Position numbers and translations under genes: made by a program. This document shows, one piece after another, positions 7,955-58,400 of a stretch of 64,000 nucleotides of DNA. The DNA comes from Candidatus Pacearchaeota archaeon. Its GTDB lineage: Archaea; Nanobdellota; Nanobdellia; Pacearchaeales; GW2011-AR1. Numbering within the stretch: the stretch's first letter is position 1; each line of letters begins with the position of its first letter. The notes beneath the pieces were generated by a model. The model saw nothing but the letters and a program-made list of their open reading frames with translations. It was not told where the DNA came from and made no database searches. The stretch spans positions 66,826-130,825 of the forward strand of contig JBAZMK010000001.1 in the NCBI GenBank assembly GCA_041649755.1. Reading direction: 5' to 3'.

Positions 7955-7969
7955 TAATTTACTAAGAGA

Positions 7970-8278: not shown

Positions 8279-8279
8279 G

Positions 8280-8459: not shown

Positions 8460-8635
8460 GAAAATCTCTCTAATCTCCCAATTACTCTCCCCCTAATGTA
8501 TACTCTATCCCCATCCGTTCTATATACCTCATTTGTTCTTGGGTTTGTCAAAGTATCTCCCCCCTTAGGGACCACATAAAAAGGTTTTCCATCTATTACT
8601 TTCCTAGTTTTTTCTGTGGTGTTTATGAGTGGCAT
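8456..8635 (-). CDS. Hypothetical small protein (59 aa)
   Basis: ATG..TAA ORF MPLINTTEKTRKVIDGKPFYVVPKGGDTLTNPRTNEVYRTDGDRVYIRGRVIGRLERFS; no family recognised; convergent with L24e. Confidence 0.25.
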   Translation of the reverse strand: MPLINTTEKTRKVIDGKPFYVVPKGGDTLTNPRTNEVYRTDGDRVYIRGRVIGRLERFS

Positions 8636-8696
8636 TTAATATGAAAAAAAGGGTATTATTTAAATTATTGGTATAATCCTTCCTTAGTTATATCCA

Positions 8697-9521: not shown

Positions 9522-10022
9522 ATGGAGAAAAAGGTCTGGAAGTTTACTAATCAGAGAGAATTGAATAAAAAAGAGTTTATTAATTACTTTGAAAGGAAAA
9601 TTTTCAGAACTATCCGAAAATATGGAATGCTCCCAAAAGACAGAATTATTTTACTGAAAAAGTCTGACAATTTAAATTATCTTGTTTTGAAAAGAGTTCT
9701 TGGAGGAAAATTTAAGGTCAAGTTTTCTAATAAACCAAATTTTAGTTCTGAAAATTTAAGCGAATGCGCCGAAAGGATTTTTATAAATATTCTTAAAGGA
9801 AAATTTACTGGACCAAAACCAAAAGATAAAATTTCTCGTCCGCTTTATTTTTTATCTGACAAAGAAATTGAACTTTATGCAAAAATTAAAAATATTTATG
9901 GTGGGAAAAGAAAATCTAATAGAAAGATAGGGAAATTAATTGATAAATTTTCAGAAAAAAATCAGGATATTGAGATTAATATAGTCAATGCAATGGAGAA
10001 AATTTTTAGGAAAGATTTATAA
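9522..10022 (+). CDS. Hypothetical protein (166 aa)
   Basis: ORF only; lysine-rich. Confidence 0.4.
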   Translation: MEKKVWKFTNQRELNKKEFINYFERKIFRTIRKYGMLPKDRIILLKKSDNLNYLVLKRVLGGKFKVKFSNKPNFSSENLSECAERIFINILKGKFTGPKPKDKISRPLYFLSDKEIELYAKIKNIYGGKRKSNRKIGKLIDKFSEKNQDIEINIVNAMEKIFRKDL

Positions 10023-10044
10023 TTAGAATTTTGTAAGTATATGG

Positions 10045-10746
10045 ATGTTGGTGAAGCCTTATATAAAAAAATACGGCGAGTTTTCTGGCTTAGTCGCTTG
10101 GATAGTAGACGGCAATTATATAAGAAATAATTTAGAGATTAATTTCACTAATTTTGGTCAGTACCCTCAATTTAAGTTCATCCCCAAAAATGAAATTTGG
10201 ATTGATAAAGAGAGAAGTCCTGGAGAGGAAAAGTTTTTCATAGATTATATGCTTGCACTACATCGCCTTATTTCCCGAGGGATTAAAAAAAAGGAGGCAG
10301 TTGAACTTGCTGAGAAAATAGAGAAAAAAGAGAGGGCAAAAAAAGAATTAATAAAAAAAGAATTCGGTCTAAGCAAAGATTATCCCCAGTTAATTAAGAA
10401 GATTCATAAAAAGAAAATTATTTCTTACAGCAAAAAGATTAAGGTATGGGTTGTTAACGGAGAAATTGTGCGAAGTTTTTTGTTTATAGATTTTACAGAA
10501 GGAGGTCATGATAAGGTGTATTCTTTTATACCTAAGGGAGAGATATGGATTGATGACGACCTTTCGTTAAAAGAAAGAAAATTCGTTCTTCTCCATGAAA
10601 TTCACGAAAGGAATTTGATGGCTAAGGGTATGGAATACGAATCTGCACATAATGATTCAAGCAAAATAGAGCTTTATTGTAGAACGCATCCGAAGGAAAC
10701 AGACAAGAAAATAAGTGCAGAGATTAAGAAACTAAAGTCCAACTAG
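10045..10746 (+). CDS. Hypothetical protein with an internal ~60-aa duplication; second copy carries an HExxH-like motif (LLHEIHE)
   Basis: Repeat 1 VAWIVDGNYIRNN...FKFIPKNEIWIDKERSPGEEKFFIDYMLALHRLISRG aligns with repeat 2 KVWVVNGEIVRSF...YSFIPKGEIWIDDDLSLKERKFVLLHEIHERNLMAKG. Confidence 0.5.
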   Translation: MLVKPYIKKYGEFSGLVAWIVDGNYIRNNLEINFTNFGQYPQFKFIPKNEIWIDKERSPGEEKFFIDYMLALHRLISRGIKKKEAVELAEKIEKKERAKKELIKKEFGLSKDYPQLIKKIHKKKIISYSKKIKVWVVNGEIVRSFLFIDFTEGGHDKVYSFIPKGEIWIDDDLSLKERKFVLLHEIHERNLMAKGMEYESAHNDSSKIELYCRTHPKETDKKISAEIKKLKSN

Positions 10747-12782: not shown

Positions 12783-12868
12783 TCTTTAAATATGACAAGA
12801 TACTATTTAAATATTATCGTAAAGCAATCTCATAAACAAATTTATAAATGTCGGGGGGTTAGAGTTTT

Positions 12869-13969
12869 ATGGCAAATAAGGTGACTCCGTGGGAAGTTTC
12901 CGGAGAGGTAGATTATGACAAACTTGTGAAAGAATTTGGGACGATTAAGATTTCTGACAAGATTTATGAGAGAGTAAAAAATTGCCATCCTCTTCTTAGA
13001 AGGAAAATCTACTTTTCACATAGAGATTTTGATAGGTGGCTTAGTGCTTTTGATGAAGGAAAAAAGGTTTCTGTGATAACTGGTAGGGGTCCTTCTGAAA
13101 AAATGCATATTGGACATCTTGTTCCTTTGCTTGTGGCTAAGTCACTTCAGGAGAATTTTGACTGCCCTGTTTTTATACCTATTTCTGATGATGAGAAGTT
13201 TTTTGTAAATGAGAATATAACATTTGAGCAGTCTTTAAAGTTCTCTTATGATAATATTTTAGATATCATAGCCCTTGGTTTTGACCCTGAAAAAACATTT
13301 ATTTTTGAAGATTTCGTTTATACAGACATTTACAAGTATGCGGCAAGGATAGCAAAAAGAATAACTTACTCTACGGCTAAGGCGACGTTTGGGCTTTCTC
13401 CTGAGAAGAATATTGGCTGGTCTTTTTATCCTGCAATGCAGGCTGCACATATTCTGTTCCCCCAGTTCTATTTAAAGGAAAAGCACATTTCGGTGGTTCC
13501 TGTTGGAATTGACCAAGACCCTTTTATAAGGTTGACAAGAGATATTGCTAACCATTCTGATTTTAAACTTGAAAAACCTGCGGCGATTCACGCTAAATTT
13601 ATTCCTTCACTATATGGGGGGATAAAAATGTCATCAAGCGGAGAAGGGGTTATCTTCCTTTCTGATGACCCAAAAACCGTAAAGAAAAAAATAAACAAAT
13701 ATGCTTTTTCCGGCGGTCAGGCAACAATTGAAGAGCACAGAAAGAAAGGGGGAAACGCCGAAATTGATGTTTCCTTTCAATATTTAAAAATGTTTTTTGA
13801 ACCAGATGATAATAAACTTGAAGAAATTAAAAAGAAATATGAGTCGGGAAAGATGCTTTCAGGGGAGTTGAAAGGAATTTTAATTGAGAGAATAAATGAA
13901 TTCTTAAAGGAACACCAAAAGAAGAAGAAAGAAGCTGAAAAAAGAATTGACCAGTTTTTGATTAAATAA
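12869..13969 (+). CDS. trpS: Tryptophanyl-tRNA synthetase (archaeal/eukaryotic type)
   Basis: TGRGPSEKMHIGHLVP (HIGH), KMSSS (KMSKS), N-terminal VTPWEVSGEVDYDKLVKEFG typical of archaeal/eukaryotic TrpRS. Confidence 0.85.
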   Translation: MANKVTPWEVSGEVDYDKLVKEFGTIKISDKIYERVKNCHPLLRRKIYFSHRDFDRWLSAFDEGKKVSVITGRGPSEKMHIGHLVPLLVAKSLQENFDCPVFIPISDDEKFFVNENITFEQSLKFSYDNILDIIALGFDPEKTFIFEDFVYTDIYKYAARIAKRITYSTAKATFGLSPEKNIGWSFYPAMQAAHILFPQFYLKEKHISVVPVGIDQDPFIRLTRDIANHSDFKLEKPAAIHAKFIPSLYGGIKMSSSGEGVIFLSDDPKTVKKKINKYAFSGGQATIEEHRKKGGNAEIDVSFQYLKMFFEPDDNKLEEIKKKYESGKMLSGELKGILIERINEFLKEHQKKKKEAEKRIDQFLIK

Positions 13970-21968: not shown

Positions 21969-22262
21969 TCAATGCAAGATCTCCAATAAATATTTCCCTT
22001 TTCCGGAGATATTTAATTTCCAGTTCTTAACGTCAACAAACTTTGTCGCAACAAAATTATCGTCAAGCCAGACTGCCTTGAAAGGTTTGCAGAAAAAAGA
22101 GTGAATAGAAATTTTCTTTTCTCGGTTAAATACAAATAATAGTGGCGGACTTCTACGACGGAACATCAATCCAAGAAATTTTTGAGGAATTGTTTTTAAG
22201 ACTTTCGCGTTTACCGAATGTTTCTTTCCTTTAAACCTATAATTGATATTCTTTAAAACCAT
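21969..22262 (-). CDS. DUF192 (COG1430) family protein
   Basis: GLMFRRRSPPLLFVFNREKKISIHSFFCKPFKAVWLDDN matches DUF192 (GLMxR...FW..N...PLD). Confidence 0.5.
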   Translation of the reverse strand: MVLKNINYRFKGKKHSVNAKVLKTIPQKFLGLMFRRRSPPLLFVFNREKKISIHSFFCKPFKAVWLDDNFVATKFVDVKNWKLNISGKGKYLLEILH

Positions 22263-22648
22263 CCCTTTTCCTCTTTTTTCCTTATAAATTTTTGATAGAC
22301 GTTTTCAACGGAACTTTCGTGAACTTTATCGTGATGAATAAAACCCCCACCGAAAGATTTTGGAATGTGCATTAATTCATGAATCACTACTTTTACTTTT
22401 TCATTATAGGGGAGTTTGTCAAATCTCTCTGAGATTACTTCAATAAGGTAAAATCCTTTTTTTCTTCCCATCCCAATTTGCATCGCTTTTCCAAGGGCAT
22501 GACATCTTGCGATTGTCCTCCTTGCTGAAGAGCCACGACTCCTAAGAAAAGCTACGTGCTCAAGAAAAATGTGGTCCCAATCTAAGTTGTAGATAATTTC
22601 CTCTGCGATTTTTTTTATGTCAGGTGCTTGTTCGTATTTAATTGGCAT
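22253..22648 (-). CDS. Zincin-like putative metallopeptidase (HExxH)
   Basis: VVIHELMHIPKSFGGGFIHHD. Confidence 0.5.
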   Translation of the reverse strand: MPIKYEQAPDIKKIAEEIIYNLDWDHIFLEHVAFLRSRGSSARRTIARCHALGKAMQIGMGRKKGFYLIEVISERFDKLPYNEKVKVVIHELMHIPKSFGGGFIHHDKVHESSVENVYQKFIRKKEEKGWF

Positions 22649-25328: not shown

Positions 25329-25895
25329 ATGGGGACTACAAAGTACTTAAGAGAAGCTTGGAAAAAACCAGATGTAAAAGTCCTTAGAGAAAGGATGATT
25401 GAATGGAGAAAAGGCGAATCAGTTGTAAGAGTAGAAAAACCTCTAAGACTTGACAGAGCAAGAAATCTTGGTTACAAGGCAAAAAAAGGAGTAGTTATCG
25501 TTAGGATTAGGATTAAAAGAGGGGGGCACAAGAGAACTAGACCTTACAAAGCGAGAAGGACAAAAAGACTTCATATCAGAAAGAACCTTACTATGAATTA
25601 TAAAGAAATCGCAGAACAAAGAGTTGCGAGAAAATTCACAAATATGGAAGTTTTAAACTCCTATGTGGTTGGAAGAGATGGGATAAATTATTTTTACGAA
25701 GTGATTTTAGTTGACAGAAATGCTCCTGAAATAAAAACAGACAAGGAATTATCAAGATTTGTAAAATCACCAAAGAGAAGGGCTTTAAGAGGTCTTACAA
25801 GTGCAGGTAAAAAAGCAAGAGGGTTAAGAAACTCCCTAATTAAGTCACCAAAAGTTAGACCAAGTCTTAGAGCAAACAGAAGGCAAGGCAATTAG
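25329..25895 (+). CDS. rpl15e: Ribosomal protein L15e
   Basis: N-terminus GTTKYLREAWKKPDV and basic composition of L15e; start likely ATG 25329. Confidence 0.9.
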   Translation: MGTTKYLREAWKKPDVKVLRERMIEWRKGESVVRVEKPLRLDRARNLGYKAKKGVVIVRIRIKRGGHKRTRPYKARRTKRLHIRKNLTMNYKEIAEQRVARKFTNMEVLNSYVVGRDGINYFYEVILVDRNAPEIKTDKELSRFVKSPKRRALRGLTSAGKKARGLRNSLIKSPKVRPSLRANRRQGN

Positions 25896-27745
25896 GAAGA
25901 AATTAATTTTTTCATGTCTTCATTAATAAAATAAGTCGGTTTTTTTCCTGAATAAGTCAAGTGCAGGCAATCTCTTGCTCGTGAAATTGCCACGTAAAAA
26001 AGTCTTTTTTCTTCTTCTTCGCGGTCATAATCGTTTGATTTTATTAATTCAATTGCAGGATTGTCGTTAGCCTTACAAGGAAAATTCTGGTCGTTGCAAC
26101 CCACTACAAAAACTTTTTTTGCTTGGAGACCTTTTATTGAATGAATTGTCGCGAGAAGAACACCTTCTAATGAAAATTCATTTGGTTCTTTCAATTCATC
26201 AGTCTTTATCGTATGAGGAATCTTTTTTTCAACCATAATTTTTGATAGTTCTATAACCTGTCTGTTTGTTCTTGCCAACACAAAAATATCAGTAGGAAGA
26301 AGATTAGAGTTTAATATTTCTTTTATAACATAATTCTTTTCTTCTTCTTCACTATCAAAACCTAAGAGAGTTATCTTCGGGCTTCCTTGTCTATGATTTT
26401 GTAAATCCGGAAGCCCCAAATCTTTTATAGAGTGATTCATAAATTCTACGATTTCTTTTAAGCTCCGGTAATTTTTTGAAAGGTGGATAACTTCTGAACG
26501 ACCAAAATCATCCTCAAAGTTTAAAATGTATTTTATGTCCGAACCGCGCCAGCCAAAAATTGCCTGACGAGGGTCCCCAACTGAAAAAAGATTTTCTGGA
26601 TTTAAAAGTTTAAGAAGTTTGACTTGCATAGCATTTACGTCCTGATATTCATCTACTAAAATATGCTCAAATTTTGGTATGAAAATTTTATTTTTCTCAA
26701 GGAAATTAATCGCATCGATTAATTGGTCTGTAAAATCTCTAAGCCCTTGTGTATCCATATAATCTTTTAAAAGTCTGCTTATTTGATAAACCATTTTAGC
26801 ATTTTGTTTATCTTTTTGTTCAGCTCCCTTAGAAAAATCATAATTCTCACCAGTTACTTTAAAGTATTCAATTACCGAAAAGCAATCATTCATAAAACTA
26901 CTTATAAGTTGATTTGGTGTTTTGAATTCTTTTTGTTTTTTTGAAAAATACTCGTTGACCGCTTCTTCCATATCAATACCAAGAGCTGATAAAGAAATAT
27001 TCATAGCCAAAATTTTGTCGGCATAAGTTATAACTCTTACAGGTTTTCCGTAAACATTATGTCCATATTTCCTTAGGATTTCTTCGCAAAATGAATTAAA
27101 TGTGTGAACATTTATTCCTTCAATGTTTATATTTTTTAATCTCTTCTCCATTTCTTTTTTTGCCTTTCTTGTAAAAGTTATAGCGAGGATTTTATTTGGG
27201 CTTATATTTTTATGTTTGACTAAAAACTCTATTCTTTTAATTAATACAGAAGTCTTCCCAGAACCCGCCCCGGCTACACAAAGAACCCTTTTAGATTGAG
27301 ATACTATTGCCTTTCTTTGTTCGTCGTTATATTTTTTTAGAAAACTACCAAAGCTTTTGAAATAATCTCTTTCTTCTTCGGTTACAAGGCTCTTACTAAA
27401 ATTTAGCTTATATTTCAATTTTTTATTTGTCAGAGTCTGGTGAACTATCTCGTTTTGACCTTTAATTGTTATTCTTAAAACTTTAACGAAACGATTATAG
27501 TCGCTGATTCTTTGTTCAATCATTCCATTTGCGATTAAATTATTTATCTCATTATGAACTTTTTCTTTTTCCCAGTTTAATGAGCCAAAATTTTGAAGTT
27601 CATCAAGACGATTTTTTGTGATAGAGGCATTCTTGTAATTCCCTACTAAGAAATCAACCAATAGATTTTTACCCACTGAAAAAGGAATCTCTATTAAGGC
27701 TTTTAAAATTTTTAGATATCCTAATGAATCCGTCTTTTTTTCCAT
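25892..27745 (-). CDS. UvrD/Rep-family (SF1) DNA helicase with an extra ~150-aa N-terminal domain
   Basis: Walker A AGAGSGKTSVL; motifs II/III (VDEYQD, GDPRQAIFGWRGSD); C-terminal VAISRARD. Confidence 0.8.
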   Translation of the reverse strand: MEKKTDSLGYLKILKALIEIPFSVGKNLLVDFLVGNYKNASITKNRLDELQNFGSLNWEKEKVHNEINNLIANGMIEQRISDYNRFVKVLRITIKGQNEIVHQTLTNKKLKYKLNFSKSLVTEEERDYFKSFGSFLKKYNDEQRKAIVSQSKRVLCVAGAGSGKTSVLIKRIEFLVKHKNISPNKILAITFTRKAKKEMEKRLKNINIEGINVHTFNSFCEEILRKYGHNVYGKPVRVITYADKILAMNISLSALGIDMEEAVNEYFSKKQKEFKTPNQLISSFMNDCFSVIEYFKVTGENYDFSKGAEQKDKQNAKMVYQISRLLKDYMDTQGLRDFTDQLIDAINFLEKNKIFIPKFEHILVDEYQDVNAMQVKLLKLLNPENLFSVGDPRQAIFGWRGSDIKYILNFEDDFGRSEVIHLSKNYRSLKEIVEFMNHSIKDLGLPDLQNHRQGSPKITLLGFDSEEEEKNYVIKEILNSNLLPTDIFVLARTNRQVIELSKIMVEKKIPHTIKTDELKEPNEFSLEGVLLATIHSIKGLQAKKVFVVGCNDQNFPCKANDNPAIELIKSNDYDREEEEKRLFYVAISRARDCLHLTYSGKKPTYFINEDMKKLISS

Positions 27746-36265: not shown

Positions 36266-39124
36266 TTAAACTTTTAGACTGATAATTTTAGATATGTTTT
36301 CCTGCATTGAAACTCCATAAAGACTCGTTGCCTCAGATATTAGCGTGTCATTGTGGGTGATAATTATATACTGACCACTTTTAAGATATTTTTTTATCAT
36401 AGCTGCAAGAAGTTCTGAATTGTGTTTATCAAGAGCAGCATCAATTTCGTCAAAAATGTAAAACGAATAGGGGCGGTATTCCTGTATAGCAAAAATCAAT
36501 GAAAGGGCAACGAGAGTTTTTTCTCCGCCTGAAAGGCTGGTTATATCAAAATATTTACCTCTTGAAACTTTAATGAGAATATTTATTCCTGCGTCAAAGG
36601 GATTCTTTTTATCTTCAAGTTCAAGGAATATTTCTCCTTTTTTAGAAAGTTGTTTAAAATTTCTTGTAAAGAGTTCATTAACTGAATTAAGTGTTCCAAG
36701 AAAAGCCTTTTTCTTTTTCTTATCTATTTCACTGATAATTTTTTGAATTTTCTCTTTTTCATTCTCTATTGTTTCAACTTTTTGTTTTATAGATTCGCAC
36801 TGCTCGGCGACTTTATCAAAGATTTCCAACGCCCTCATATTAACATTCCCTAACTGAGATATTCTAAATTGAGCTTTTCCAAGCCGTTCTCTAACCTGTT
36901 CAACAGGAATCTGTAAAATTTCAATGTCTCCGAATTCAACTAATTCATTCTTTAACGAATCAATTTGTGCTGAAAACTGGGCTTTTAAAATTTTATTGTT
37001 ATTTACCTTTTCTTCAAGGTTCCTGACAGTATGTTGCAAACCTATAACATCTGTTTCTATTACTTTCTGCTGGTCCTGTACTTCGTTTCTTTGCGAGAAA
37101 AATTTCTGAAATTTCTCGTATAATTCCTGCTCTTCTTTTTCTTTTTTCTCAAGAATCTTCTCTTTATCGGAAAGTATAACCTCAATCTTTTTTAACTCTA
37201 TTGAAGAATCTTCTATATCTCTTTCTATCCTCTTTAATTCTACATTAATTCTATTTATTTCACGCTGTTTCAAAGAAACCTCTGTGTCAAAATCAGTATC
37301 TTTAAAAGACAATTCCTGTATTTTCAACCTGACCTCATCATAATTTTCCTCAACATCTTTAATCTTTTCAAATTCTTCTTTTAGTGAATGAATTTTCTCT
37401 TTTTTTCCTTTAATAATTTCTTTCGAATCTTCAATTTCTTTTCTTATTAATTTAGCCTGATTTTGTTTTTCCGTGACGTTCTTGATTTTTATTCTATCAA
37501 TATCTAATTCGTTAATTTGTTTGCTTAATTTAAAAATTTCCTCTCGGAGACTATTTATCTCTATTTGGTATTTTTCTTTAAGAATTTCATTTTCTTTTAA
37601 TTCTTTTTCTGCTTTGTCTATTTTTTCCTTCGATTCAACCGAAATTTTATGTTTGTGGTCTGAACTAACTTCTTGTTTGCAAATAGGGCAATTTTCCAAA
37701 TTTATAATATCTCTTCTTAATTTTTCTTCTTTTGATATTCCTTCTTCAAGTATAGCATTCTTTTTTTCAATAGTTAATATTTCTTTCTCTATTTTAGAAA
37801 AAGTCATTTCTTTTTCTTTTATTTCTGTAGTCTTTTTTTCTTTTAATTTATCAACGGCATCAAGGGATTTTTCATATTTTATTTCTTGGTTTAACTCGTT
37901 AATATTTTTTTCTATGAGCTTTATTTCCTGCTCAGATTCTTTTATGAATTTCTCCTTTTCTTCTTTTATACTCTCCTGAGTTGAAATGTCTGCCTTAAGA
38001 ATATAAAACTTTCTTCTTTGTTGTTCAAGCTTGTCAAATTTTTCCTGAAGAGTCTTTGATATCTCCTGCTGTTTTTTTATCTCAGGGGAATTTTTCTGAA
38101 GGTTTGAAATCTCCTCGTTAAGTTTCTCAATTTTTTCTTTATAATATAATAATCTCTCGTTGCCTTGATTTTTCCTATTTTCATGATTTTCATACTTAAC
38201 TCTAAGTCCTGCGAGTTCTGCTTTAAGGTCGGAGATTTCTCTATGAATTTCGTCCTGCTCACTACTTGACTGAATCTTTTTATTGATAATCTGTATTTTT
38301 CCCTGAAGTTCTTCAACTTTTTGATTCTTTATTTCAATATCTTTTTTAATTTTTTCTACGTCCTTTTCTATGTTTTCTATAGCCCTATCAACACCCCATA
38401 TTTCTTTTTCTTTTTCTTTGAGATTTTTAAAAAGAAGAGTCGCTTTACATTTTTTAATCATTTCTTCAAGTTTTTGATGAGAAATCGCTTCTTGTCTTTC
38501 TTTCTCAAGATTTTTAAGAAAATTGCTCCTCTCTTTAAGAACTGCTGAAACTTCTTTCAATCTTTCCTCAGTTTTTTCAAGTTCTCTTAGGCTTTTGTGC
38601 TTTCTAGTTTCATAAATTGAAATTCCTGCTACCTCTTCTATTATCTGTCTTCTTTCTTCTGAAGTTGATTTAACAAGTGACTGGATTTCTCCCTGTAAAA
38701 CAATGTTAAAGCCATTTGGGTCAATTCCCCCTTGAGCAAGGAGCTCAATTAATTCCTGTCTTGATTTAGTTTCTCCGTTTATTTTATAGATTGACTGACC
38801 ATTTTTTCTTACAATTCTCTTAATCGTAACCTCCTTAGAGTCTATTCCAAAGGTTTTATCTTCATTGTCAAAAATCAACTCTACAAAAGCCTCGTTTGAA
38901 CCCTTGTAAATTTTGTTCCCAGAAAAAAGAAGATTCGCTGCTCTTGCCGCACGAATTGACTTTATAGAGAGTCTTCCTAAAACAAAACAAAGTGCATCTG
39001 TAATATTTGATTTTCCAGAACCATTTGGACCGACAATAACATTCATAGCGTTTTCAAAAGGAATCTCGGTTTTTCTTGCAAAACTTTTAAAGCCCTGCAT
39101 CACCATTTTTTTTATGTAAGTCAT
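36266..39124 (-). CDS. SMC-like coiled-coil ATPase with a Rad50-type CxxC zinc hook at the coiled-coil midpoint instead of a hinge
   Basis: SMC-type N-terminus FKSF...GPNGSGKSN..DALCFVLG; signature LSGGEKTLVALSLIFAIQ; D-loop DEIDAALD; ENCPICKQ near aa 478 of 952; no hinge-like Gly-rich domain. Confidence 0.8.
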   Translation of the reverse strand: MTYIKKMVMQGFKSFARKTEIPFENAMNVIVGPNGSGKSNITDALCFVLGRLSIKSIRAARAANLLFSGNKIYKGSNEAFVELIFDNEDKTFGIDSKEVTIKRIVRKNGQSIYKINGETKSRQELIELLAQGGIDPNGFNIVLQGEIQSLVKSTSEERRQIIEEVAGISIYETRKHKSLRELEKTEERLKEVSAVLKERSNFLKNLEKERQEAISHQKLEEMIKKCKATLLFKNLKEKEKEIWGVDRAIENIEKDVEKIKKDIEIKNQKVEELQGKIQIINKKIQSSSEQDEIHREISDLKAELAGLRVKYENHENRKNQGNERLLYYKEKIEKLNEEISNLQKNSPEIKKQQEISKTLQEKFDKLEQQRRKFYILKADISTQESIKEEKEKFIKESEQEIKLIEKNINELNQEIKYEKSLDAVDKLKEKKTTEIKEKEMTFSKIEKEILTIEKKNAILEEGISKEEKLRRDIINLENCPICKQEVSSDHKHKISVESKEKIDKAEKELKENEILKEKYQIEINSLREEIFKLSKQINELDIDRIKIKNVTEKQNQAKLIRKEIEDSKEIIKGKKEKIHSLKEEFEKIKDVEENYDEVRLKIQELSFKDTDFDTEVSLKQREINRINVELKRIERDIEDSSIELKKIEVILSDKEKILEKKEKEEQELYEKFQKFFSQRNEVQDQQKVIETDVIGLQHTVRNLEEKVNNNKILKAQFSAQIDSLKNELVEFGDIEILQIPVEQVRERLGKAQFRISQLGNVNMRALEIFDKVAEQCESIKQKVETIENEKEKIQKIISEIDKKKKKAFLGTLNSVNELFTRNFKQLSKKGEIFLELEDKKNPFDAGINILIKVSRGKYFDITSLSGGEKTLVALSLIFAIQEYRPYSFYIFDEIDAALDKHNSELLAAMIKKYLKSGQYIIITHNDTLISEATSLYGVSMQENISKIISLKV

Positions 39125-39148: not shown

Positions 39149-39811
39149 TTAAGGATTATCAAATAATTTACTCTGTCTATCTTTCTTTACTATTCTAATG
39201 ATTGTTTCCCATGAAAACCTAATTGTGTGACTGTATTTTGAATTATTATGGTTTCCTCTGATGAACTCTTTTGTTTTGGGGTCAGAAGGGTAACCGCTTC
39301 CAAAATCCACTTCAAGTTCTTTTTTCAACCTAGCGATTTCTTCTTCGCGTTTTTCTTTAGCTATAATCGATGCGGCTGAGACAACTAGGTGGTTTACATC
39401 TGCTTTGTGTTCGCAATACATCTTTATAATTTCGGGCTTTTTTAGGAGTTTTGAAACATCTCTCCCCCAAGAAGAAAGATTAACGGAAGGACAGTCAACA
39501 ATAACATCAATAGGTTCTGAAATACTTTCTGTAAGTTTATTTATTATTTTTGCAGCTTTTATAGCCTCTAAATAATTTAGATTATCGGATTCGTCTATCT
39601 CTTTAGGATATGTTACTTCTATGTGGCTCTTAAACTTTTTCTTTATTTTGTCTCCAATTTCTTTTCTTTTTTTTGGAGTAAGGAGTTTGGAATCTTTGGC
39701 TCCCCATTCTTTCAAAATTTTTTTATCTTTTTCTTCTATAAGAACTCCTGCAAGAATCATTGGTCCAATCACTGGACCCCTCCCAGCATCATCAATACCT
39801 ATAATCTTCAT
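39149..39811 (-). CDS. rnhB: Ribonuclease HII
   Basis: GIDDAGRGPVIGPM catalytic motif. Confidence 0.9.
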   Translation of the reverse strand: MKIIGIDDAGRGPVIGPMILAGVLIEEKDKKILKEWGAKDSKLLTPKKRKEIGDKIKKKFKSHIEVTYPKEIDESDNLNYLEAIKAAKIINKLTESISEPIDVIVDCPSVNLSSWGRDVSKLLKKPEIIKMYCEHKADVNHLVVSAASIIAKEKREEEIARLKKELEVDFGSGYPSDPKTKEFIRGNHNNSKYSHTIRFSWETIIRIVKKDRQSKLFDNP

Positions 39812-49606: not shown

Positions 49607-50797
49607 ATGGTAAAATTTGCTCATTTAGCGGACTGCCATCTTGGGGGGTGGAGACAAGAGGAACTTATGACTCTGAATTTCAGGTCTTTCCAAAAGATAA
49701 TGGAAATTTGTATTGAAGAAAAGGTAGATTTTATACTTATTTCGGGGGATTTGTTTGATTCGGCGTACCCTTCAATAGAAATTTTAAAGGAAACTTTTGC
49801 GGAGTTTAAAAAAATTAGAGACGCGGGAATTCCAGTCTATCTAATTGCAGGCAGTCATGACTTTTCTGCTTCTGGAAAGACCTTTCTTGATGTTTTAGAA
49901 AAAGCGGGTTTTTGTAAAAATGTAGAGAAATTTGAGGTTCAAGAAGACGGGAAGATAAAACTCTTGCCTTCTTTTTATGAAGATATTGCGATTTATGGTT
50001 ATTCGGGAAGAAAATCTGGGCTTGAAGTAGATTTTTTAAAAAAGGTTTTTCTTGATTCTATTCATCCTTTTACTATTTTTATGATTCACACAACAATTCA
50101 CGATATTGTCGGAAATCTTCCTGTGGACTATGTTGAGAGAAGAGACCTTCCCCTAGCGGACTACTATGCTATGGGTCATATCCATCAGGTTTTTGAGATT
50201 AGAGAGAAAAATTCTGTGTTTGTTTATCCTGGACCTGCATTTCCCAATAACTTTCAGGAATTGGCAGACTTAAAATGCGGAAGTTTTCAAATTGTTGAGG
50301 TTAATGGAAAAGTAAAAACGAGAAGCATAAAGATCCCCCTTAAAGAAGTGGCTTATCTTGAAATAGAAATTCAAAACGGGCTGACCGCAACAGAGAAAAT
50401 TATTGCTGAGATTGATAAATTAAACCTCCGAGATAAAATATTTTTATTAAAAATCTATGGAACTCTTAGTGAAGGAAAGACGGGCGACATACATTTTAAT
50501 GAGATAGAGGAATTTGTTAAGAAGAAGGAAGCGTACTCTTTTTTAAGGAATATATCTTCTATAAAAATAAAAGAAGCCGATTTTGAAATATCCCCTGAAC
50601 ATGAAAATGTTGAGGATTTAGAGAAAAAGATTGTTAGGGAATATTCTTCTAAAAATCCCGGGGATTTTAATAAATATTTACCCCGCTTGTTAGAGGCTCT
50701 GGCTATTGAAAAAAAAGAAGACGAGAAATCTGTAATTTTTGAGGAAAGATTATACTCTGAATTAAAAGACGTCCTCGACCTCGCAAAAGTTCTATGA
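49607..50797 (+). CDS. mre11: DNA double-strand-break repair nuclease Mre11
   Basis: Phosphoesterase motif I FAHLADCHLG, GDLFD, GSHD, MIHT, GHIH. Confidence 0.9.
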   Translation: MVKFAHLADCHLGGWRQEELMTLNFRSFQKIMEICIEEKVDFILISGDLFDSAYPSIEILKETFAEFKKIRDAGIPVYLIAGSHDFSASGKTFLDVLEKAGFCKNVEKFEVQEDGKIKLLPSFYEDIAIYGYSGRKSGLEVDFLKKVFLDSIHPFTIFMIHTTIHDIVGNLPVDYVERRDLPLADYYAMGHIHQVFEIREKNSVFVYPGPAFPNNFQELADLKCGSFQIVEVNGKVKTRSIKIPLKEVAYLEIEIQNGLTATEKIIAEIDKLNLRDKIFLLKIYGTLSEGKTGDIHFNEIEEFVKKKEAYSFLRNISSIKIKEADFEISPEHENVEDLEKKIVREYSSKNPGDFNKYLPRLLEALAIEKKEDEKSVIFEERLYSELKDVLDLAKVL

Positions 50798-52851
50798 TAA
50801 TAAAAAAATTGCATCTGGAGAATATAAGAAGCTACGAAGAAGTTACAATTGAATTCCCGAAAGGTTCACTCCTGTTATCAGGAGATATTGGTTCAGGAAA
50901 GACATCAATCCTCTTAGGACTGCAGTTTGCGTTATTTGGTCTTCAGCCTGGTCAAAAAAGCACCTCTCTTTTAAGACAAGGAAAAGACGTGGCTTATGTT
51001 TCATTAGAAATTGAGATTGATGGAAAAGAAATAACACTTGAGAGAACTATGAAGAGAAGTAAAAACGGAGGGATAACGCAAGAGGCAAATATCATAACAA
51101 TAGACTCTTCCAGAGAAGAACTTTCAACTTCAGAAATGAAAGACAGAGTAATGAAACTTCTTAACTATCCTAAAGAATTTGTTAAAAAGTCCAACCTTCT
51201 TTATAAGTTCACGGTTTACACCCCCCAGGAAGAAATGAAGTCAATAATTCAAGAAAGAGCCGAAATAAGGCTTGATATTTTAAGACACATTTTTGGTATT
51301 GACCGATATAAGAGAATAAAAGAAAATACACAGATTTTTTTGCAAAAGATAAAAGAGGTCACAAGAATAAAAGAGATTCTTGCTTCTGAACTCAATTTAA
51401 TAAAGGAAAAGCTTAACATAGAAAGTGAGAAAAAAATTCTTCTTGCAAGAGAAGTAAATAACCTCAATATTGAGTACCAAAAATTGATGGAAAAGAAAGA
51501 TGAAACAAAGATGAAACTTGAGTTTTATCAGAAAAGTCTAGAAGAAAAAAGAGAACTTGACTCAAAGATTTCAAATCTTGAAACGTTAATCCTCGGAAAA
51601 AAAGATTTAGAGAATAAGATAAAAAAGGAAATTTTGATTATGCAGAAACAAATTGAGGAAGAGGTAGATTTCTCTGAAGAGAGATTAAGGGCAACAATGG
51701 CTTTGTTAGATAAACACAAGTTTCTTCTTGAAGAAAAAAATGTTTCTTTTTTAAAAATAAACTCCCAGATTTCTGTCCTTAAAGCGAAAAAAGAAGAATT
51801 ACTTGGTCTGAAAGAAAAAGTTGAATCTTTAGAGAATTGTCCTACTTGCTTTCAGGTTGTAAGTTTAGAACACAAAACAAAAATTTCCAAGAGGACCCAA
51901 TTTGATATAGAGGATATTGATAGAGAGCTGGACTGCAAATTAAAAGAGAGAGAGTCTCTGATTAAAGAAACAGAAAATGAGAAAAGGCTTATACAAGAGT
52001 ATGAAGAAGATGTAAATTTAATGCAACGGAATAAGATTAAATTTGAACATCAAAATGAGATTAAAATAAGATTAAAAAGCGAGGCATTTATCCTTGATAG
52101 AACCTACAATGAAATTGAAGGATTAAAAGGACAAATTGAAGTATTAAAATCAAGACTTGTTGATTATTTAAAGTCTTATGAATTATTTGAGGGAGTAAAA
52201 AAAGAATTCGAAAATGGAGAAAGAATTGTCAGAAATTTTGAAATAAATCTCGCTGAAAAAAATAAAGAACTTGAGATTTTAAAGAGTCGGCTTGAAGAAC
52301 TTCAGAAGGATATTGAAGACAAAAGCAAGTTCAGGGAACAGGCACAATATCTGAAAGGTCTGCAAGACTGGATTGAAGAGAAATTTCTCTCGCTTATTGT
52401 TTTAACTGAAAAAAATGTTATGGTTAAACTACGGGAGGAGTTCTCTTATATATTCGGTGAGTGGTTTTCTGTTCTTGCCCCTAATTCTATTTCTGTCAGA
52501 CTTGATGAAGATTTTACTCCAATTATCACAAATCAGGATTACGAAATTGATTATGACTTTCTTTCTGGCGGGGAGAGAACCGCTGTAGCTTTGGCTTATC
52601 GTCTTGCACTTAATCAGGTTTTGAATTCCATCCTTTCCAGAATTAAAACCAAAGATTTGTTAATTTTAGATGAACCAACAGAGGGTTTTGCGTCAGAACA
52701 GCTTGACAAAATGAGAGATATTTTTGAACAATTAAATATGGAACAAATAATTTTAGTGAGCCACGAACAGAAAATTGAGGGTTTTGTTGACCATGTGATT
52801 AGGATAAGAAAAGACGGAACCAGCCAAATAGACCAACCAAAATCCTTTTAA
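50794..52851 (+). CDS. rad50: DNA repair ATPase Rad50 (short, 685 aa) with a CPTC zinc hook
   Basis: Walker A GDIGSGKTS; zinc hook LENCPTCFQ at the midpoint; signature LSGGERTAVALAYRLAL; D-loop LILDEPTEGF; start overlaps the mre11 stop. Confidence 0.9.
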   Translation: MIIKKLHLENIRSYEEVTIEFPKGSLLLSGDIGSGKTSILLGLQFALFGLQPGQKSTSLLRQGKDVAYVSLEIEIDGKEITLERTMKRSKNGGITQEANIITIDSSREELSTSEMKDRVMKLLNYPKEFVKKSNLLYKFTVYTPQEEMKSIIQERAEIRLDILRHIFGIDRYKRIKENTQIFLQKIKEVTRIKEILASELNLIKEKLNIESEKKILLAREVNNLNIEYQKLMEKKDETKMKLEFYQKSLEEKRELDSKISNLETLILGKKDLENKIKKEILIMQKQIEEEVDFSEERLRATMALLDKHKFLLEEKNVSFLKINSQISVLKAKKEELLGLKEKVESLENCPTCFQVVSLEHKTKISKRTQFDIEDIDRELDCKLKERESLIKETENEKRLIQEYEEDVNLMQRNKIKFEHQNEIKIRLKSEAFILDRTYNEIEGLKGQIEVLKSRLVDYLKSYELFEGVKKEFENGERIVRNFEINLAEKNKELEILKSRLEELQKDIEDKSKFREQAQYLKGLQDWIEEKFLSLIVLTEKNVMVKLREEFSYIFGEWFSVLAPNSISVRLDEDFTPIITNQDYEIDYDFLSGGERTAVALAYRLALNQVLNSILSRIKTKDLLILDEPTEGFASEQLDKMRDIFEQLNMEQIILVSHEQKIEGFVDHVIRIRKDGTSQIDQPKSF

Positions 52852-55438: not shown

Positions 55439-58400
55439 TCAAGGAGTCTGGCCGTGAGGAACTGCTTTGAATAAAAGAGAGTTGTTGTAAACTCCTGCCG
55501 GCTGAGCGGGGGGTGCACTCAAGAAAAATTTCAAATAGATGACGCTTCCATCGCCAAGATTGTCTCCTATCTTATTATCATAATCTGTTGTAAGACTATA
55601 TTTAGTTTCACTTGGAACGCTCTGATTATCATAACTATACGAAAAAGTTTCGTTTCCGATTCCAAGAGTATCTAAATCAGCGGTCATTAAATCTGAGTTT
55701 GCTTTTAAGTAAACATCTACGCCAGAACTTAAAGTAGAGATATTTATGTAATAATCTGTTGAGCCTTCGCCATTATTCCCTTCTGCCGACTGATTGAATA
55801 TGGGTAAGGAAGAGATTGTCCAATTTATCTTATCATTTAGCTTATCAGAGAAATAAATCGCTATTCCTTCTTCTGCAGATTGTATTGTTAAATTCCATTC
55901 TCCCGTCGCATTAGAGATATCTAGATTAGAAGTTAAATTAGCAAACGCATAAAAACTATGTGTATTACTCGCCTCTCCTGTTGCGTTTACCCAGAAAGTT
56001 ATCGTCTCACTCTGTCCTTCGGTCAATGAAGAAGTTGTCAAAGGATTTGAACTTGCATTTGTGTAGAAAGGCGTTCCAGAATTAATAGGAATTAAACCTG
56101 AGGAGTATAAGCTTGTGTTGATTGTTTCACAATTCCCTTCAAGACAGGTCACATTTAAGGTTACATTAAAAAATTCGTTTTGTGTTATATTAATATTCTC
56201 TGTCGGATATAAAACCTCTAACCCTATTAAAGGAGTTGAATTAACAAAGAAAACAACGGATTCCGTATCGTTTAAATTTCCTGCAGTATCATTACAATAA
56301 GCATAAATTGTGTAAGTATTGTTTGATGATATAGAATAAGTTGAATTGAACACTAAATTATCTGTGGTGTCCATTGAAAAGTTTGAGGTTCCGTTTCCGA
56401 ACCAGCAAGTTCCTTCTTCGTTGATTGTAAAATTCACCACGATAGAAGTTGTTGAATAAGAGTATGTTTGATTTAGTGGAGAGTTTATTGTTACAGAAGG
56501 TGGAGTTGCATCCATTCCACTAATTGTTACCGTTCTCATTTCAGTTTCATTCACATTCCCAGCCATATCTTGTGTGTATGCTTTGAATGTGTGTGTTCCT
56601 TCTGCTAAACTTGTGAAGTTATGGTAGGAGTTTCCGCTCCAGACAGTTAAGTTTCCTCTTTTTACTAGTATAATATGGTTTGGAACAGTTACATCGTAGA
56701 TTCTTCCATTGTAATTCTCTTTTGTTATGTTTTTTATTTTTATTTCTCTGCCTTTTTCATCTAAAAATACCAAATTATCTGTATTTTTATTGCCTTTTTC
56801 AATTTCAGAGTATAATTCAGAGATTTTTATTAGGTTGAAATTGTTTAGTTCTTCCCTACCAAAAGGTTTAAATACTTTATTTGTATGCAAATAAGATAAA
56901 TAATTACTTTGTAAATCCAAGATGGGAACAATCACTCTATCTGTGCCTGATGAATTGAAGTCTGAAATGGATAGTACTGATTTTATTAATTGGTCTTCAG
57001 TAGCAAGAAGGGCATTTTTGGAGGTACTCAAGGATGTTAAAAAATTAGAATTATTAAAGAAACTTAGAGAAATTTCTGAAATATCTGATGATGACAGAAG
57101 AGAGATTAAAGATTCTCTTGTCAAAGAAGTAGTGGATTCTGTTGAAAAGGTTTCTAAAGACTTAAAGTCCGGCAAGATCAAGCCGAAAAGCTTAAAAGAA
57201 TTCAATGCATTCTGTGAGTCATGAATATTGATACTACCCTTATTGATGATACTCTCATCAAGCTTAGAAAAAAAGATTTGACTCTTTTTAGGGCTCTTCA
57301 AAAGAAAATCTGCCAAATTGCCCAACTCGATTGGGATTCCCTTCAGCATTTCAAAAATTTGAGGGGGAGCCTTAAAGACTATAAGCGAGTCCATGTTGGA
57401 AGTTACGTCCTTATTTTCAAGGTAGAAAGAGAGGTTATTATCTTCGCCAAATTTGTCCATCATGACGAGGCTTACTGAGCCGCGCTTTTCTTTTTTATTA
57501 GAATAAGCAACATAAACTTTATGCTCAGGTGAAACGAGCAGGCTTCCTTTTTCTTCATCATAATTTTCAGTTTCAATTCTGTACATTTCTTCATTTTCAT
57601 GTGCAAAATCCTGTTTTTCAGTTGGTTTTTGCCATTCAGTTTCTCCTGAATTTGAATTAAGAGTGAGGATTTCATCCTCTAAACTTACATTTGAAAAATG
57701 TTTCCAGCCAGAATCAGTCATAACTTCTGTTTCATTATCAAAACAGTATTTTGTACTCTGGTTTGCGTATAATGCCTGAATTTCTTCAGCAGATAAACTT
57801 CTATTAAATATCATTACATCGTCGATGGAACCGTTGAAACTTTGACTATTATCTGATTTAGAACCTATATTAGCAGTATTCAAGTTTATTGGACGTCCAC
57901 TAAAAGCATAATAGCTACCTCCATATTGCCCATTTAAATACAGAAATATGCCACTTTCATTATTGATTACTACAAGATTATTCCAAGTATCTTCTGTAAT
58001 AACTGGACCATTAATATTAATATTAGGTCCATCAGAATCCCATCTAACCCGCACAATATCATCGTCTGACCACCTAATAAAAGCACTAGGATAGCCAGTT
58101 CCTGCAAGATTAAATAAGTAATTATCAGTTCCATCATTTATTGCTTTAAACCAAAGCGAAATGGTAGAATAAGTATATGAAACACTAGGTCCAGCAACAT
58201 CAACATAATCCCCATCTCCATCAAACTCAAACCCCTTCCCTAGTTTTCCAGCAGTTGTTTGTTTTGCATCCCCTTGTTTTGTTCCATTGTTGCTTCCAGT
58301 ATAATCTACCACTGTTGTTCCATTAAAGTCATCCATCCTCCACCATCCTACTAATGAATTATCAAAGTCAATGAATGTGCTTATGTTGCTATTTCCTCTT

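What the first reader, a model, noticed from the sequence alone, without database searches (positions are those of the whole stretch)
36266..39124. Second zinc-hook ATPase: SMC-type head combined with a Rad50-type CxxC hook, separate from the Mre11-Rad50 operon
The 952-aa protein has an SMC-like N-terminus (QGFKSF...GPNGSGKSNITDALCFVLG) and C-terminal signature/D-loop (LSGGEKTLVALSLIFAIQ, DEIDAALD). In place of a hinge domain it has ENCPICKQ exactly at the midpoint of the coiled coil (about aa 478/952). This mirrors the CPTC hook at the midpoint of the bona fide Rad50 (50794-52851) that overlaps mre11. At about 950 aa it is too short to hold an SMC hinge. A hook-bearing SMC-like protein, adjacent and co-directional with RNase HII and with no ScpA/ScpB nearby, could be the chromosome-organising ATPase of this organism or a distinct repair factor.
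Basis: partly seen in the sequence, partly recalled or inferred. Interest (0 to 1): 0.65.

Follow-up and report, generated by a model that had tools for sequence, protein, structure and literature searches.

The report
SMC with Rad50-type zinc hook
This Pacearchaeota (DPANN archaeon) gene encodes a true SMC chromosome-organising ATPase whose hinge dimerisation domain has been replaced by a Rad50-type zinc hook, the natural counterpart of a chimera that was built artificially in Bacillus subtilis in 2017.

Summary
The gene lies on the minus strand (36266-39124) and encodes 952 aa.

- **Head:** it is SMC, not Rad50. SMC_prok_A scores 511 bits against about 111 for Rad50 models. The best solved structure is a Pyrococcus Smc head at 1.7e-99, against Rad50 at 2.6e-16.
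- **Hinge:** no hinge domain is detectable.
- **Hook:** C479-P-I-C482 sits at the apex loop (475-487) of a roughly 46 nm antiparallel coiled coil in the AlphaFold2 model. Both cysteines are invariant in 36 aligned relatives (36-79 % identity). CPxC is present in all 120 closest homologues.
- **Rad50 link:** a profile of the hook plus or minus 45 aa finds the Pyrococcus furiosus Rad50 zinc hook (1L8D, 5.8e-9) and the human RAD50 hook. The signal survives replacing the cysteines with alanine.
- **Phylogeny:** the hook-SMCs form one clade (NJ bootstrap 80/100). Its nearest hinge-bearing relatives that carry a name are Woesearchaeota SMCs. RNase HII is the conserved upstream neighbour.

The best reading is that this is the lineage's SMC orthologue after a hinge-to-hook swap. 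It probably still works as an SMC homodimer.

Two points are untested. No ScpA/ScpB was found in the DNA I could read. A second canonical SMC elsewhere in the genome cannot be excluded.

I found no paper describing a natural SMC with a zinc hook. Some sister lineages have since lost the hook too.

The parts
36266..39124 (-). hook-SMC gene, 952 aa (identical to P0001, NCBI 'MAG: chromosome segregation SMC family protein [Candidatus Pacearchaeota archaeon]')
   Evidence: TIGR02169 SMC_prok_A scores 511.5 bits. PF02463 SMC_N scores 2e-51.
38624..39124 (-). N-terminal half of the ABC ATPase head (aa 1-167), including Walker A GPNGSGKS (nt 39008-39031), invariant R58 (read from memory as the SMC arginine-finger position) and Q-loop Q144
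   Evidence: The PDB match to the Pyrococcus Smc head 5xei covers aa 1-247 at 1.7e-99.
37703..38623 (-). ascending coiled-coil strand (aa 168-474), with helix breaks at 286-288, 344-347 and 415-420
   Evidence: AlphaFold2 secondary structure. Collinear with Woesearchaeota SMC residues 1 to about 480.
37664..37702 (-). hook loop NLENCPICKQEVS (aa 475-487). The zinc-binding CPIC is aa 479-482, nt 37679-37690.
36647..37663 (-). descending coiled-coil strand (aa 488-826), with breaks at 588-590, 607-613, 731-740 and 759-764. The last two are read as the joint region.
   Evidence: Fold match to the Pyrococcus Smc head with coiled coil and joint, 5xei.
36266..36646 (-). C-terminal half of the head (aa 827-952 plus stop): signature LSGGE (nt 36521-36535), Walker B/D-loop FYIFDEIDAALD (nt 36428-36463), H-loop H924, and the conserved C-terminal strands LYGVSMQENISKIISLKV
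39149..39811 (-). RNase HII, 24 nt upstream and co-directional. It is the conserved neighbour of the hook-SMC across the clade.
49607..52851 (+). separate Mre11 (49607-50797) and Rad50 (50794-52851, 685 aa) operon. The Rad50 hook CPTC lies at nt 51838-51849, and its surroundings closely resemble the SMC hook.

Best explanation
**What it is.** This is the SMC (condensin-type) ATPase of a Pacearchaeota lineage. The hinge, with its junction (about 190-205 residues in Woesearchaeota SMCs), has been replaced by a short zinc-hook module at most about 40 residues long. The head and almost the full length of both coiled-coil strands were kept.

**How it most likely works.**
1. Each chain folds back on itself into an antiparallel coiled-coil arm about 46 nm long, with CPIC at the tip.
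2. Two chains are joined permanently at the tips. One Zn2+ is bound by four cysteines, two from each chain, as in Rad50.
3. The two heads engage and disengage with ATP.
4. The dimer then acts as other prokaryotic SMC dimers do, entrapping or extruding chromosomal DNA. It presumably works with a kleisin that has not been identified.

**Shown versus inferred.**
- Shown: the domain architecture, conservation of the cysteines, SMC identity of the head, sequence similarity of the hook to Rad50 hooks, one clade among hinge-bearing SMCs, and conserved synteny.
- Inferred: zinc binding, homodimerisation, kleisin partnership, the chromosome-organising function, and Rad50 as the donor of the hook.
For: **Head is SMC.**
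- TIGR02169 scores 511.5 bits and TIGR02168 scores 500.6. The best Rad50 model scores 110.8, ASRP 100.9 and arcadin-4 59.1.
- In the PDB, the Pyrococcus Smc heads score 1.7e-99 to 4e-77, against 2.6e-16 for Rad50.
- Foldseek on the model gives TM 0.89-0.90 to the Smc head-ScpA complexes 5xns and 4i99.
- The catalytic residues are invariant: K38, Q144, S865-E868, D892, E893 and H924.

**Hinge is absent.**
- There is no PF06470 hit.
- phmmer with a Woesearchaeota hinge matches 102 hinge-bearing proteins among the 150 representatives and no hook-class protein.

**Arms are collinear with canonical SMC.** Query 1-477 aligns to P0153 1-479, and query 460-952 aligns to P0150 653-1142.

**Hook.**
- C479 and C482 are invariant.
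- All full-length proteins of about 946-1023 aa among the 50 %-identity representatives carry CPxC at 0.47-0.50 of their length.
- The AF2 model (pLDDT 78.8) has helices 168-474 and 488-826 joined by the loop 475-487.

**Similarity to Rad50 hooks.**
- A profile of the hook plus or minus 45 aa hits 1L8D at 5.8e-9, 6ZFF at 4e-8 and human RAD50 5GOX at 8e-5. These rank ahead of all generic coiled coils.
- The window's own Rad50 hook scores 48.3 bits, and 33.2 after Cys-to-Ala replacement. In 500 flank-shuffled controls that keep CPxC, the mean is 4.5 and the maximum 26.9.

**Evolution.**
- The hook clade, including its hookless derivatives, has 80/100 NJ bootstrap support. The closest hinge-bearing SMCs that carry a name are all labelled Woesearchaeota.
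- RNase HII is the upstream neighbour in every clade locus read where upstream sequence was available.

**Feasibility.** An engineered B. subtilis Smc carrying the P. furiosus Rad50 zinc hook in place of its hinge supports normal growth (Burmann et al. 2017, PMC5344682).
Against: - No ScpA or ScpB was found in the 64-kb window or in the four other hook-SMC loci read. The kleisin partnership is therefore unsupported.
- Zinc binding and dimerisation are not demonstrated. The structure tool models single chains only.
- Positional orthologues in sister lineages have lost the hook as well. Either apex dimerisation is not essential in this clade, or the protein's role has drifted from that of canonical SMC.
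- The head tree is neighbour-joining only.
Confidence: 0.8

Rival explanations
1. It is an accessory SMC paralogue. A canonical hinge-bearing SMC (with ScpAB) does the chromosome work elsewhere in the genome, and the hook protein has a separate, possibly repair or tethering, role.
For: Only 64 kb of a genome of unknown total size was readable (the contig is 203,764 bp). No kleisin was found near any hook-SMC. Some archaea do carry two SMC types (PMC8665677).
Against: Every named hit labelled Pacearchaeota is hook-type or hookless. The closest hinge-bearing proteins that carry a name are all labelled Woesearchaeota. The hook clade branches among hinge-bearing SMCs whose named members are Woesearchaeota. 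Its arms and head are collinear with canonical SMC. This is the pattern of an orthologue, not of a divergent paralogue.
Confidence: 0.1
2. It is a Rad50/SbcC paralogue: a second double-strand-break repair ATPase that merely resembles SMC.
For: It has a CxxC hook at the coiled-coil apex, as in Rad50. It gives weak hits to Rad50 models (110.8 bits).
Against: SMC models score about 4.6 times higher, 511 against 111 bits. PDB E-values differ by more than 80 orders of magnitude in favour of SMC. There is no adjacent Mre11/SbcD. A genuine Mre11-Rad50 operon lies 11.7 kb away. Rad50 sits on a long outgroup branch in the head tree.
Confidence: 0.03
3. The CxxC tip arose by convergence inside the SMC coiled coil after loss of the hinge, not by acquiring a Rad50 hook segment.
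For: The module is short. Coiled-coil flanks align promiscuously. Similarity to SMC arms runs to within about 10 residues of the hook. There is no DNA-level tract shared with the resident rad50.
Against: The extended signature [LI][DE]xCPxCxxx[IV][TS]xEH matches the P. furiosus CPVCGRELTDEH in register. The profile score stays at 24-33 bits after the cysteines are removed, above the maximum of 500 flank-shuffled controls. Pairwise BLASTP of the SMC against the window Rad50 aligns aa 335-509 with 217-379, which spans both hooks, at 3e-8.
Confidence: 0.2
4. It belongs to the archaea-specific SMC-related proteins (ASRP: ClsN/coalescin, Sph1/2), which also carry a zinc hook, or to arcadin-4 or a defence-system SMC-like ATPase (Lamassu LmuB and similar).
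For: ASRPs have a zinc-hook motif (PMC9389158). There are weak hits to NF045487 (100.9 bits), Rkd4 (59.1 bits), LmuB (85 bits) and mad3 (163 bits).
Against: The NCBIfam hits are far below their cut-offs (300 for ASRP, 860 for Rkd4), and all four are far below the SMC score of 511 bits. The neighbourhood is housekeeping and syntenic, not a defence island.
Confidence: 0.02

Closest known systems
Prokaryotic Smc of the Smc-ScpAB complex (TIGR02169 SMC_prok_A; Pyrococcus Smc structures 5XEI, 5XNS, 4I99)
   Same: The ABC head has all catalytic motifs. The joint and the arm, about 46 nm long, are collinear with Woesearchaeota SMCs. The C-terminal strands are conserved. The best sequence and fold matches are to Smc.
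   Different: There is no hinge domain (PF06470 absent), so the score falls below the equivalog cut-off (511 against 729 bits). A CPxC hook stands in its place. No ScpA/ScpB was found nearby.
Rad50 zinc hook (P. furiosus 1L8D and 6ZFF; human 5GOX)
   Same: CPxC lies at the apex of an antiparallel coiled coil and is followed by h-[TS]-x-E-H. The profile match is 5.8e-9 over 92 of 94 positions. In the stretch of 20 aa from LEN to KIS, 14 residues are identical to the resident Rad50 hook.
   Different: The module is attached to an SMC head and SMC-length arms, with no Mre11 partner gene. The resident Rad50 is a separate 685-aa protein with much shorter arms.
Engineered B. subtilis Smc(Zh) chimera (Burmann et al. 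2017, Mol Cell; PMC5344682)
   Same: It has the same architecture: an Smc head and arms, with the hinge replaced by a Rad50 zinc hook. The chimera supported normal growth on rich medium.
   Different: That protein is artificial. This one is natural, conserved across a large archaeal clade, and has tightly fixed arm lengths.
Archaea-specific SMC-related proteins (ASRP: ClsN/coalescin, Sph1/Sph2; Yoshinaga et al. 2022, PMC9389158)
   Same: They are archaeal SMC-superfamily ATPases with a zinc-hook motif at the coiled-coil tip.
   Different: They are a different family. NF045487 scores only 100.9 bits against a cut-off of 300, while SMC models score 511.
'Hinge-less' SMC of marine Actinobacteria (Environ Microbiome 2025, PMC12153180)
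   Same: They have SMC heads and coiled coils without a hinge domain.
   Different: Those proteins are bacterial and explicitly lack the CXXC motif. The protein here has an invariant CPxC. The hookless Pacearchaeota derivatives (P0140 and similar) resemble them in architecture but nest inside the hook clade.

Membership tests
SMC (prokaryotic Smc, TIGR02169/TIGR02168) | ABC ATPase head with Walker A, Q-loop, signature LSGGE, Walker B, D-loop and H-loop, most similar to SMC heads | tested here: met
   511.5 bits to TIGR02169, 5xei at 1.7e-99, all motif residues invariant
SMC (prokaryotic Smc, TIGR02169/TIGR02168) | Long intramolecular antiparallel coiled coil (about 300 residues per strand) linking the head to a dimerisation tip | tested here: met
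   AF2 helices 168-474 and 488-826, collinear with Woesearchaeota SMC arms
SMC (prokaryotic Smc, TIGR02169/TIGR02168) | Hinge dimerisation domain (Pfam PF06470) | tested here: not met
   No PF06470 hit at E<=0.01. No match to the hinge of P0153. Positive controls: L037 at 1.3e-35 and P0153.
SMC (prokaryotic Smc, TIGR02169/TIGR02168) | Whole-protein score at or above the curated equivalog cut-off | tested here: not met
   511.5 against 729.4 (TIGR02169) and 500.6 against 567.35 (TIGR02168). The shortfall corresponds to the missing hinge.
SMC (prokaryotic Smc, TIGR02169/TIGR02168) | Kleisin (ScpA), with or without kite (ScpB), partners encoded in the genome | not testable with these tools
   None in the window or in loci L081-L085 and L093.
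Rad50/SbcC | CxxC zinc hook at the apex of the coiled coil | tested here: met
Rad50/SbcC | Rad50-type ATPase head (score above the Rad50 equivalog cut-offs) | tested here: not met
   Best Rad50 model NF003034 scores 110.8 bits against a cut-off of 700. The PDB Rad50 match is 2.6e-16, against 1.7e-99 for Smc.
Rad50/SbcC | Operon or partnership with an Mre11/SbcD nuclease | tested here: not met
   The neighbours are RNase HII and an Ig-like surface protein. Mre11-Rad50 is a separate operon at 49607-52851.
ASRP (ClsN/Sph; NF045487) | Score at or above the family cut-off, with ASRP-type head | tested here: not met
   100.9 bits against a cut-off of 300
Arcadin-4 (NF053563) | Score at or above the family cut-off | tested here: not met
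   59.1 bits against a cut-off of 860
Defence-system SMC-like ATPases (Lamassu LmuB, MADS mad3 and others; PADLOC) | Best match to a defence-system model, and a defence-island context | tested here: not met
   mad3 scores 163 bits and LmuB 85 bits, both partial head matches. The neighbourhood is syntenic and housekeeping.

The most novel reading that the evidence does not exclude
The hook-SMC is the only SMC of these Pacearchaeota, so chromosome organisation runs with no hinge at all. In sister lineages even the hook and the distal quarter of the arms have been deleted from the same gene. On this reading, neither the hinge (a proposed DNA-binding and gate element) nor any dedicated apex dimerisation domain is required for SMC function in these small-genome archaea. 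A further speculation follows from the near-identical hooks of SMC and the resident Rad50: the two might share a zinc and form mixed SMC-Rad50 bridges.
Probability: 0.3. Interest if true: 0.85.

Novelty: new variant of a known kind. Interest (0 to 1): 0.7.

Why it matters
The role of the SMC hinge is a long-running question. It has been proposed as a DNA entry gate, a DNA-binding site, or merely a dimerisation module.

The only direct test so far is an engineered B. subtilis Smc carrying a Rad50 zinc hook, which still worked (PMC5344682). Here the same swap has been made by evolution. It was then fixed across a large clade of DPANN archaea, with arm lengths held almost invariant.

This supports the view that the fold of the apex domain is interchangeable while arm geometry is not. 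It also supplies natural proteins for testing that idea by zinc dependence, loop extrusion and complementation.

The clade preserves an apparent series on one orthologous gene: hinge, then hook, then neither. That series could show what the minimal SMC needs.

Practically, these proteins fall below the NCBI SMC equivalog cut-off and are named only 'SMC family protein'. Surveys that select SMCs by their hinge will miss them.

Tried and rejected
1. **Genome-collection scan.** It was swamped by canonical SMCs from all of life. Only L001 and L010 were close relatives, so it gave no taxonomic census and no whole-genome view.
2. **Search for ScpA/ScpB.**
   - Pfam scans of about 50 window ORFs at E<=0.01, ten of the unannotated ones also at E<=10, gave nothing.
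   - tblastn with a DPANN ScpA and ScpB (from the Aenigmatarchaeota operon in L037) against the window and the held hook-SMC loci L081-L085, plus fragments L001 and L010, gave only chance hits.
3. **Possible divergent ScpA.** The 285-aa protein downstream of a Woesearchaeota canonical SMC (L086) has no Pfam match and no BLASTP similarity to ScpA.
4. **Recent gene conversion between the resident rad50 hook and the SMC hook.** Rejected. Identity is 99 of 192 nt in register, with synonymous differences throughout, and the longest shared word (14 nt) lies elsewhere in the genes.
5. **Defence-system membership.** Rejected after the PADLOC scan.
6. **Taxon names.** Cluster look-ups for names were sparse. 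Only some clusters carry a name.
7. **Literature.** Five searches and six papers read found no description of a natural SMC with a zinc hook. This covers open-access papers and bioRxiv only.
Full report
**1. The observation**

The ORF at 36266-39124 is real but lies on the minus strand. It has an ATG start and encodes 952 aa.
- Walker A GPNGSGKS, aa 32-39.
- Signature LSGGE, aa 864-868.
- Walker B/D-loop FYIFDEIDAALD, aa 888-899.
- ENCPICKQ, with C479 and C482 at 0.50 of the length.

The window is AT-rich (about 30-38 % GC). It encodes archaeal housekeeping genes: proteasome alpha, RNase HII, ribosomal L15e and S28e, Kae1, EF-2 and several aminoacyl-tRNA synthetases. The protein is identical to an NCBI entry named 'MAG: chromosome segregation SMC family protein [Candidatus Pacearchaeota archaeon]', on a 203,764-bp contig. 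Pacearchaeota is a DPANN (Nanobdellati) clade.

**2. The head is SMC, not Rad50**

| Comparison | SMC | Rad50 or other |
|---|---|---|
| NCBIfam models | 511.5 bits (SMC_prok_A), 500.6 bits (SMC_prok_B) | Rad50 110.8, ASRP 100.9, arcadin-4 59.1 |
| Solved structures (phmmer) | Pyrococcus Smc heads 1.7e-99 to 4e-77 | first Rad50 at 2.6e-16 |
| Foldseek on the AF2 model | TM 0.89-0.90 to the Smc head-ScpA complexes 5xns and 4i99; also matches 5xei (head, coiled coil and joint) | - |

The SMC scores fall below the curated cut-offs (729 and 567 bits). The best stretch, aa 3-468, covers only profile positions 1-456. All catalytic residues are invariant in 36 aligned relatives. PADLOC defence models give only partial, much weaker head matches.

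**3. No hinge, and a hook in its place**

Pfam finds SMC_N but no SMC_hinge. As positive controls, an 823-aa Aenigmatarchaeota SMC gives PF06470 at 1.3e-35, and the Woesearchaeota SMC P0153 carries the domain.

A local phmmer search used the P0153 hinge (aa 471-710) against the 150 representatives from the exhaustive search. It matched 102 hinge-bearing proteins and none of the hook class.

Domain mapping shows that the arms are collinear with canonical SMC almost up to the hook. Query 1-477 aligns to P0153 1-479, and query 460-952 aligns to P0150 653-1142. So about 190-205 residues (the hinge and its junction) correspond to at most about 40 residues here.

AlphaFold2 (mean pLDDT 78.8) gives helices 168-474 and 488-826 joined by the loop 475-487 that carries CPIC. 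At about 0.15 nm per residue, the arm is about 46 nm long. That is similar to the roughly 47 nm quoted for Smc (abstract of PMC5344682).

**4. Conservation**

- All 120 closest homologues are 60-100 % identical and 928-958 aa long, apart from one intein-bearing protein of 1486 aa. None has a hinge Pfam domain. All carry CP[IVLT]C, at the midpoint in 119; in the intein-bearing protein the motif is displaced.
- Among 50 %-identity representatives, every full-length protein of about 946-1023 aa has CPxC at 0.47-0.50 of its length. The consensus is [LI]-D-[IV]-C-P-[LV]-C-K-x-K-I-T-x-E-H. The proteins of about 1050-1200 aa have a hinge and no CxxC.
- C479 and C482 are invariant down to 36 % identity.
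- Arm lengths are almost fixed. The Walker A-to-hook distance is 449 aa in 111 of 138 sequences. The hook-to-LSGGE distance is 385 aa in 117 of 138.

These points rule out chance and assembly artefact.

**5. The hook is Rad50-like beyond the two cysteines**

A profile of the hook plus or minus 45 aa from 20 diverse hook-SMCs was searched against all PDB sequences. It finds:
- the P. furiosus Rad50 zinc hook 1L8D at 5.8e-9, over 92 of 94 positions and in register;
- 6ZFF at 4e-8;
- the human RAD50 hook 5GOX at 8e-5.

The first generic coiled coil appears only at 2.8e-4.

The same profile scores the window's own Rad50 hook at 48.3 bits and the Pyrococcus hook at 39.3. After replacing the cysteines by alanine the scores are still 33.2 and 24.5 bits. 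In 500 controls with shuffled flanks and CPxC kept, the means are 4.5 and 6.1 and the maxima 26.9 and 23.4.

The resident Rad50 hook (LENCPTCFQVVSLEHKTKIS) and the SMC hook (LENCPICKQEVSSDHKHKIS) share 14 residues in the stretch of 20 aa. At the DNA level there is no shared tract, so there was no recent gene conversion.

I read this as acquisition of a Rad50 hook segment. Convergence is the lesser alternative.

**6. Evolutionary placement**

- In a neighbour-joining tree of head domains (333 columns, window Rad50 as outgroup), the hook proteins form one clade among hinge-bearing archaeal SMCs. The clade has 80/100 bootstrap support.
- The closest hinge-bearing clusters that carry a name are all labelled Woesearchaeota. 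The hook proteins that carry a name are labelled Pacearchaeota, Nanoarchaeota or simply 'archaeon'. One is labelled Methanococcoides sp. SA1, which is probably a contaminated assembly.
- RNase HII lies directly upstream and co-directional in the window and in distant clade members: L081 (40 % identity), L082 and L084 (38 %) and L093 (36 %). It is absent from a Woesearchaeota canonical SMC locus.
- An AP-endonuclease-2 family gene and Ig-like surface proteins also recur in the neighbourhood, next to the hook-SMC in L081 and next to the hookless variants in L089-L091.

This is the pattern of an orthologue that changed its tip, not of a stray paralogue.

**7. Mechanism proposed**

Shown:
- an intact SMC ATPase;
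- SMC-length arms;
- an invariant CPxC at the apex, with Rad50-hook flanks.

Inferred from established Rad50 and SMC biology:
- two chains share one Zn2+ through four cysteines and form a constitutive tip-to-tip dimer;
- ATP-driven head engagement then drives DNA entrapment or loop extrusion, as in Smc-ScpAB.

The engineered B. subtilis Smc with the P. furiosus Rad50 hook grew normally, and its function still depended on correct arm length (PMC5344682). A Rad50 with a MukB hinge also works in fission yeast (PMC6969161). The architecture is therefore known to be workable. The near-invariant arm lengths found here fit the arm-geometry constraint reported in that work.

**8. What remains open**

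- No ScpA or ScpB was found in the window or in the other hook-SMC loci. A DPANN relative (Aenigmatarchaeota) does have an smc-scpA-scpB operon. The C-terminal strands of the head (LYGVSMQENISKIISLKV) are highly conserved. From memory, these form the surface that binds the kleisin winged-helix domain, which would fit a retained partner. This is not a test.
- A second, hinge-bearing SMC elsewhere in the genome cannot be excluded with the tools available.

**9. Literature**

Five full-text searches and six papers read turned up the following:
- the artificial chimeras;
- ASRP/ClsN hooks, which belong to a different family;
- a 2025 report of 'hinge-less' SMCs in marine Actinobacteria, which explicitly lack CXXC (PMC12153180).

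I found no description of a natural SMC with a zinc hook. The search covers open-access papers and bioRxiv only, so prior mention elsewhere is possible.

**10. Verdict**

- It is a new variant of a known kind: an SMC with a natural hinge-to-zinc-hook replacement, widespread in Pacearchaeota.
- Interest is fairly high for SMC specialists. It is a natural replicate of a key engineering experiment, and within the same clade the hook has itself been lost again.
- Confidence in the architectural and evolutionary claim is about 0.8. Confidence in the condensin-like function is about 0.6-0.7.

Noticed in passing
related loci L089/L090 (gene 6279-8693 / 6069-8483) and L091 (8001-10346); proteins P0140/P0303 (PIU75690.1), P0142, P0144, P0149/P0310: SMC variants of about 780-804 aa, labelled Pacearchaeota, with neither hinge nor CxxC. 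They occupy the same syntenic slot (RNase HII upstream) and nest inside the hook clade. They lack roughly 75-85 residues on each side of the hook. An AF2 model of P0303 (pLDDT 78.7) shows a plain helical turn near residues 406-407. This looks like secondary, possibly repeated, loss of the hook and the distal arm.
   Followed up: partly
proteins P0046, P0128, P0132 (hook-SMCs, about 1480 aa) and P0157 and other Woesearchaeota SMCs of about 1660-1800 aa: Inteins of about 525 aa (P0046 carries the Pfam domains LAGLIDADG_3 and Intein_splicing) are inserted in the Walker A P-loop (GPNGSGK|C...HN|SN). They occur in hook-type SMCs and in the hinge-type P0157 of DPANN archaea.
   Followed up: partly
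locus L092, gene 10001-12997; protein P0270/P0275 (HLD59066.1, 'AAA family ATPase [archaeon]'): A 998-aa protein with a strong SMC head (TIGR02169, 543 bits), no hinge and CPVC at 0.49 of its length. It falls outside the Pacearchaeota hook clade in the NJ tree and has no RNase HII neighbour. It may be an independent hinge-to-hook swap in another archaeal lineage.
   Followed up: partly
window 39149-39811 (-) with 36266-39124 (-); L081, L082/L084, L093, L089-L091: The RNase HII to SMC gene order (24-nt spacer in the window) is conserved across the whole hook/hookless clade down to 36 % SMC identity. It is absent from a Woesearchaeota canonical SMC locus. Whether the linkage has a function is unknown.
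   Followed up: partly
window 51838-51849 (Rad50 CPTC) versus 37679-37690 (SMC CPIC): The hooks of the resident Rad50 and of the SMC share 14 residues in the stretch of 20 aa (LENCPxCxQxVSxxHKxKIS), although the DNA is diverged. This raises the untested possibility of mixed zinc-hook dimers, or of the lineage's own Rad50 being the donor.
   Followed up: partly
L037 9995-13911 (Aenigmatarchaeota MAG): A compact smc(823 aa, with hinge)-scpA-scpB operon in another DPANN lineage. Several hinge-bearing 'mini-SMCs' of about 800-850 aa also appear among the representatives. DPANN SMC arm length therefore varies widely.
   Followed up: no
window 4740-5783 (-): A DisA-like protein (DAC di-adenylate cyclase domain plus DisA linker) in a DPANN archaeon.
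   Followed up: no
window 25892-27745 (-): A UvrD/REP-family helicase with an N-terminal RQC domain, an unusual fusion.
   Followed up: no
window 22253-22648 (-), 10045-10746 (+), 55439-61207 (-): A 'phage metallopeptidase' family ORF; a 233-aa ORF with a weak, sub-threshold Peptidase_M78 (IrrE-like) match (E 0.0085, 16 bits against a cut-off of 22); and a 1922-aa ORF that was not scanned, next to unannotated ORFs of 337, 220 and 194 aa that may be surface proteins.
   Followed up: no
window 1-64000: ARAGORN finds no tRNA gene in the whole 64 kb.
   Followed up: no
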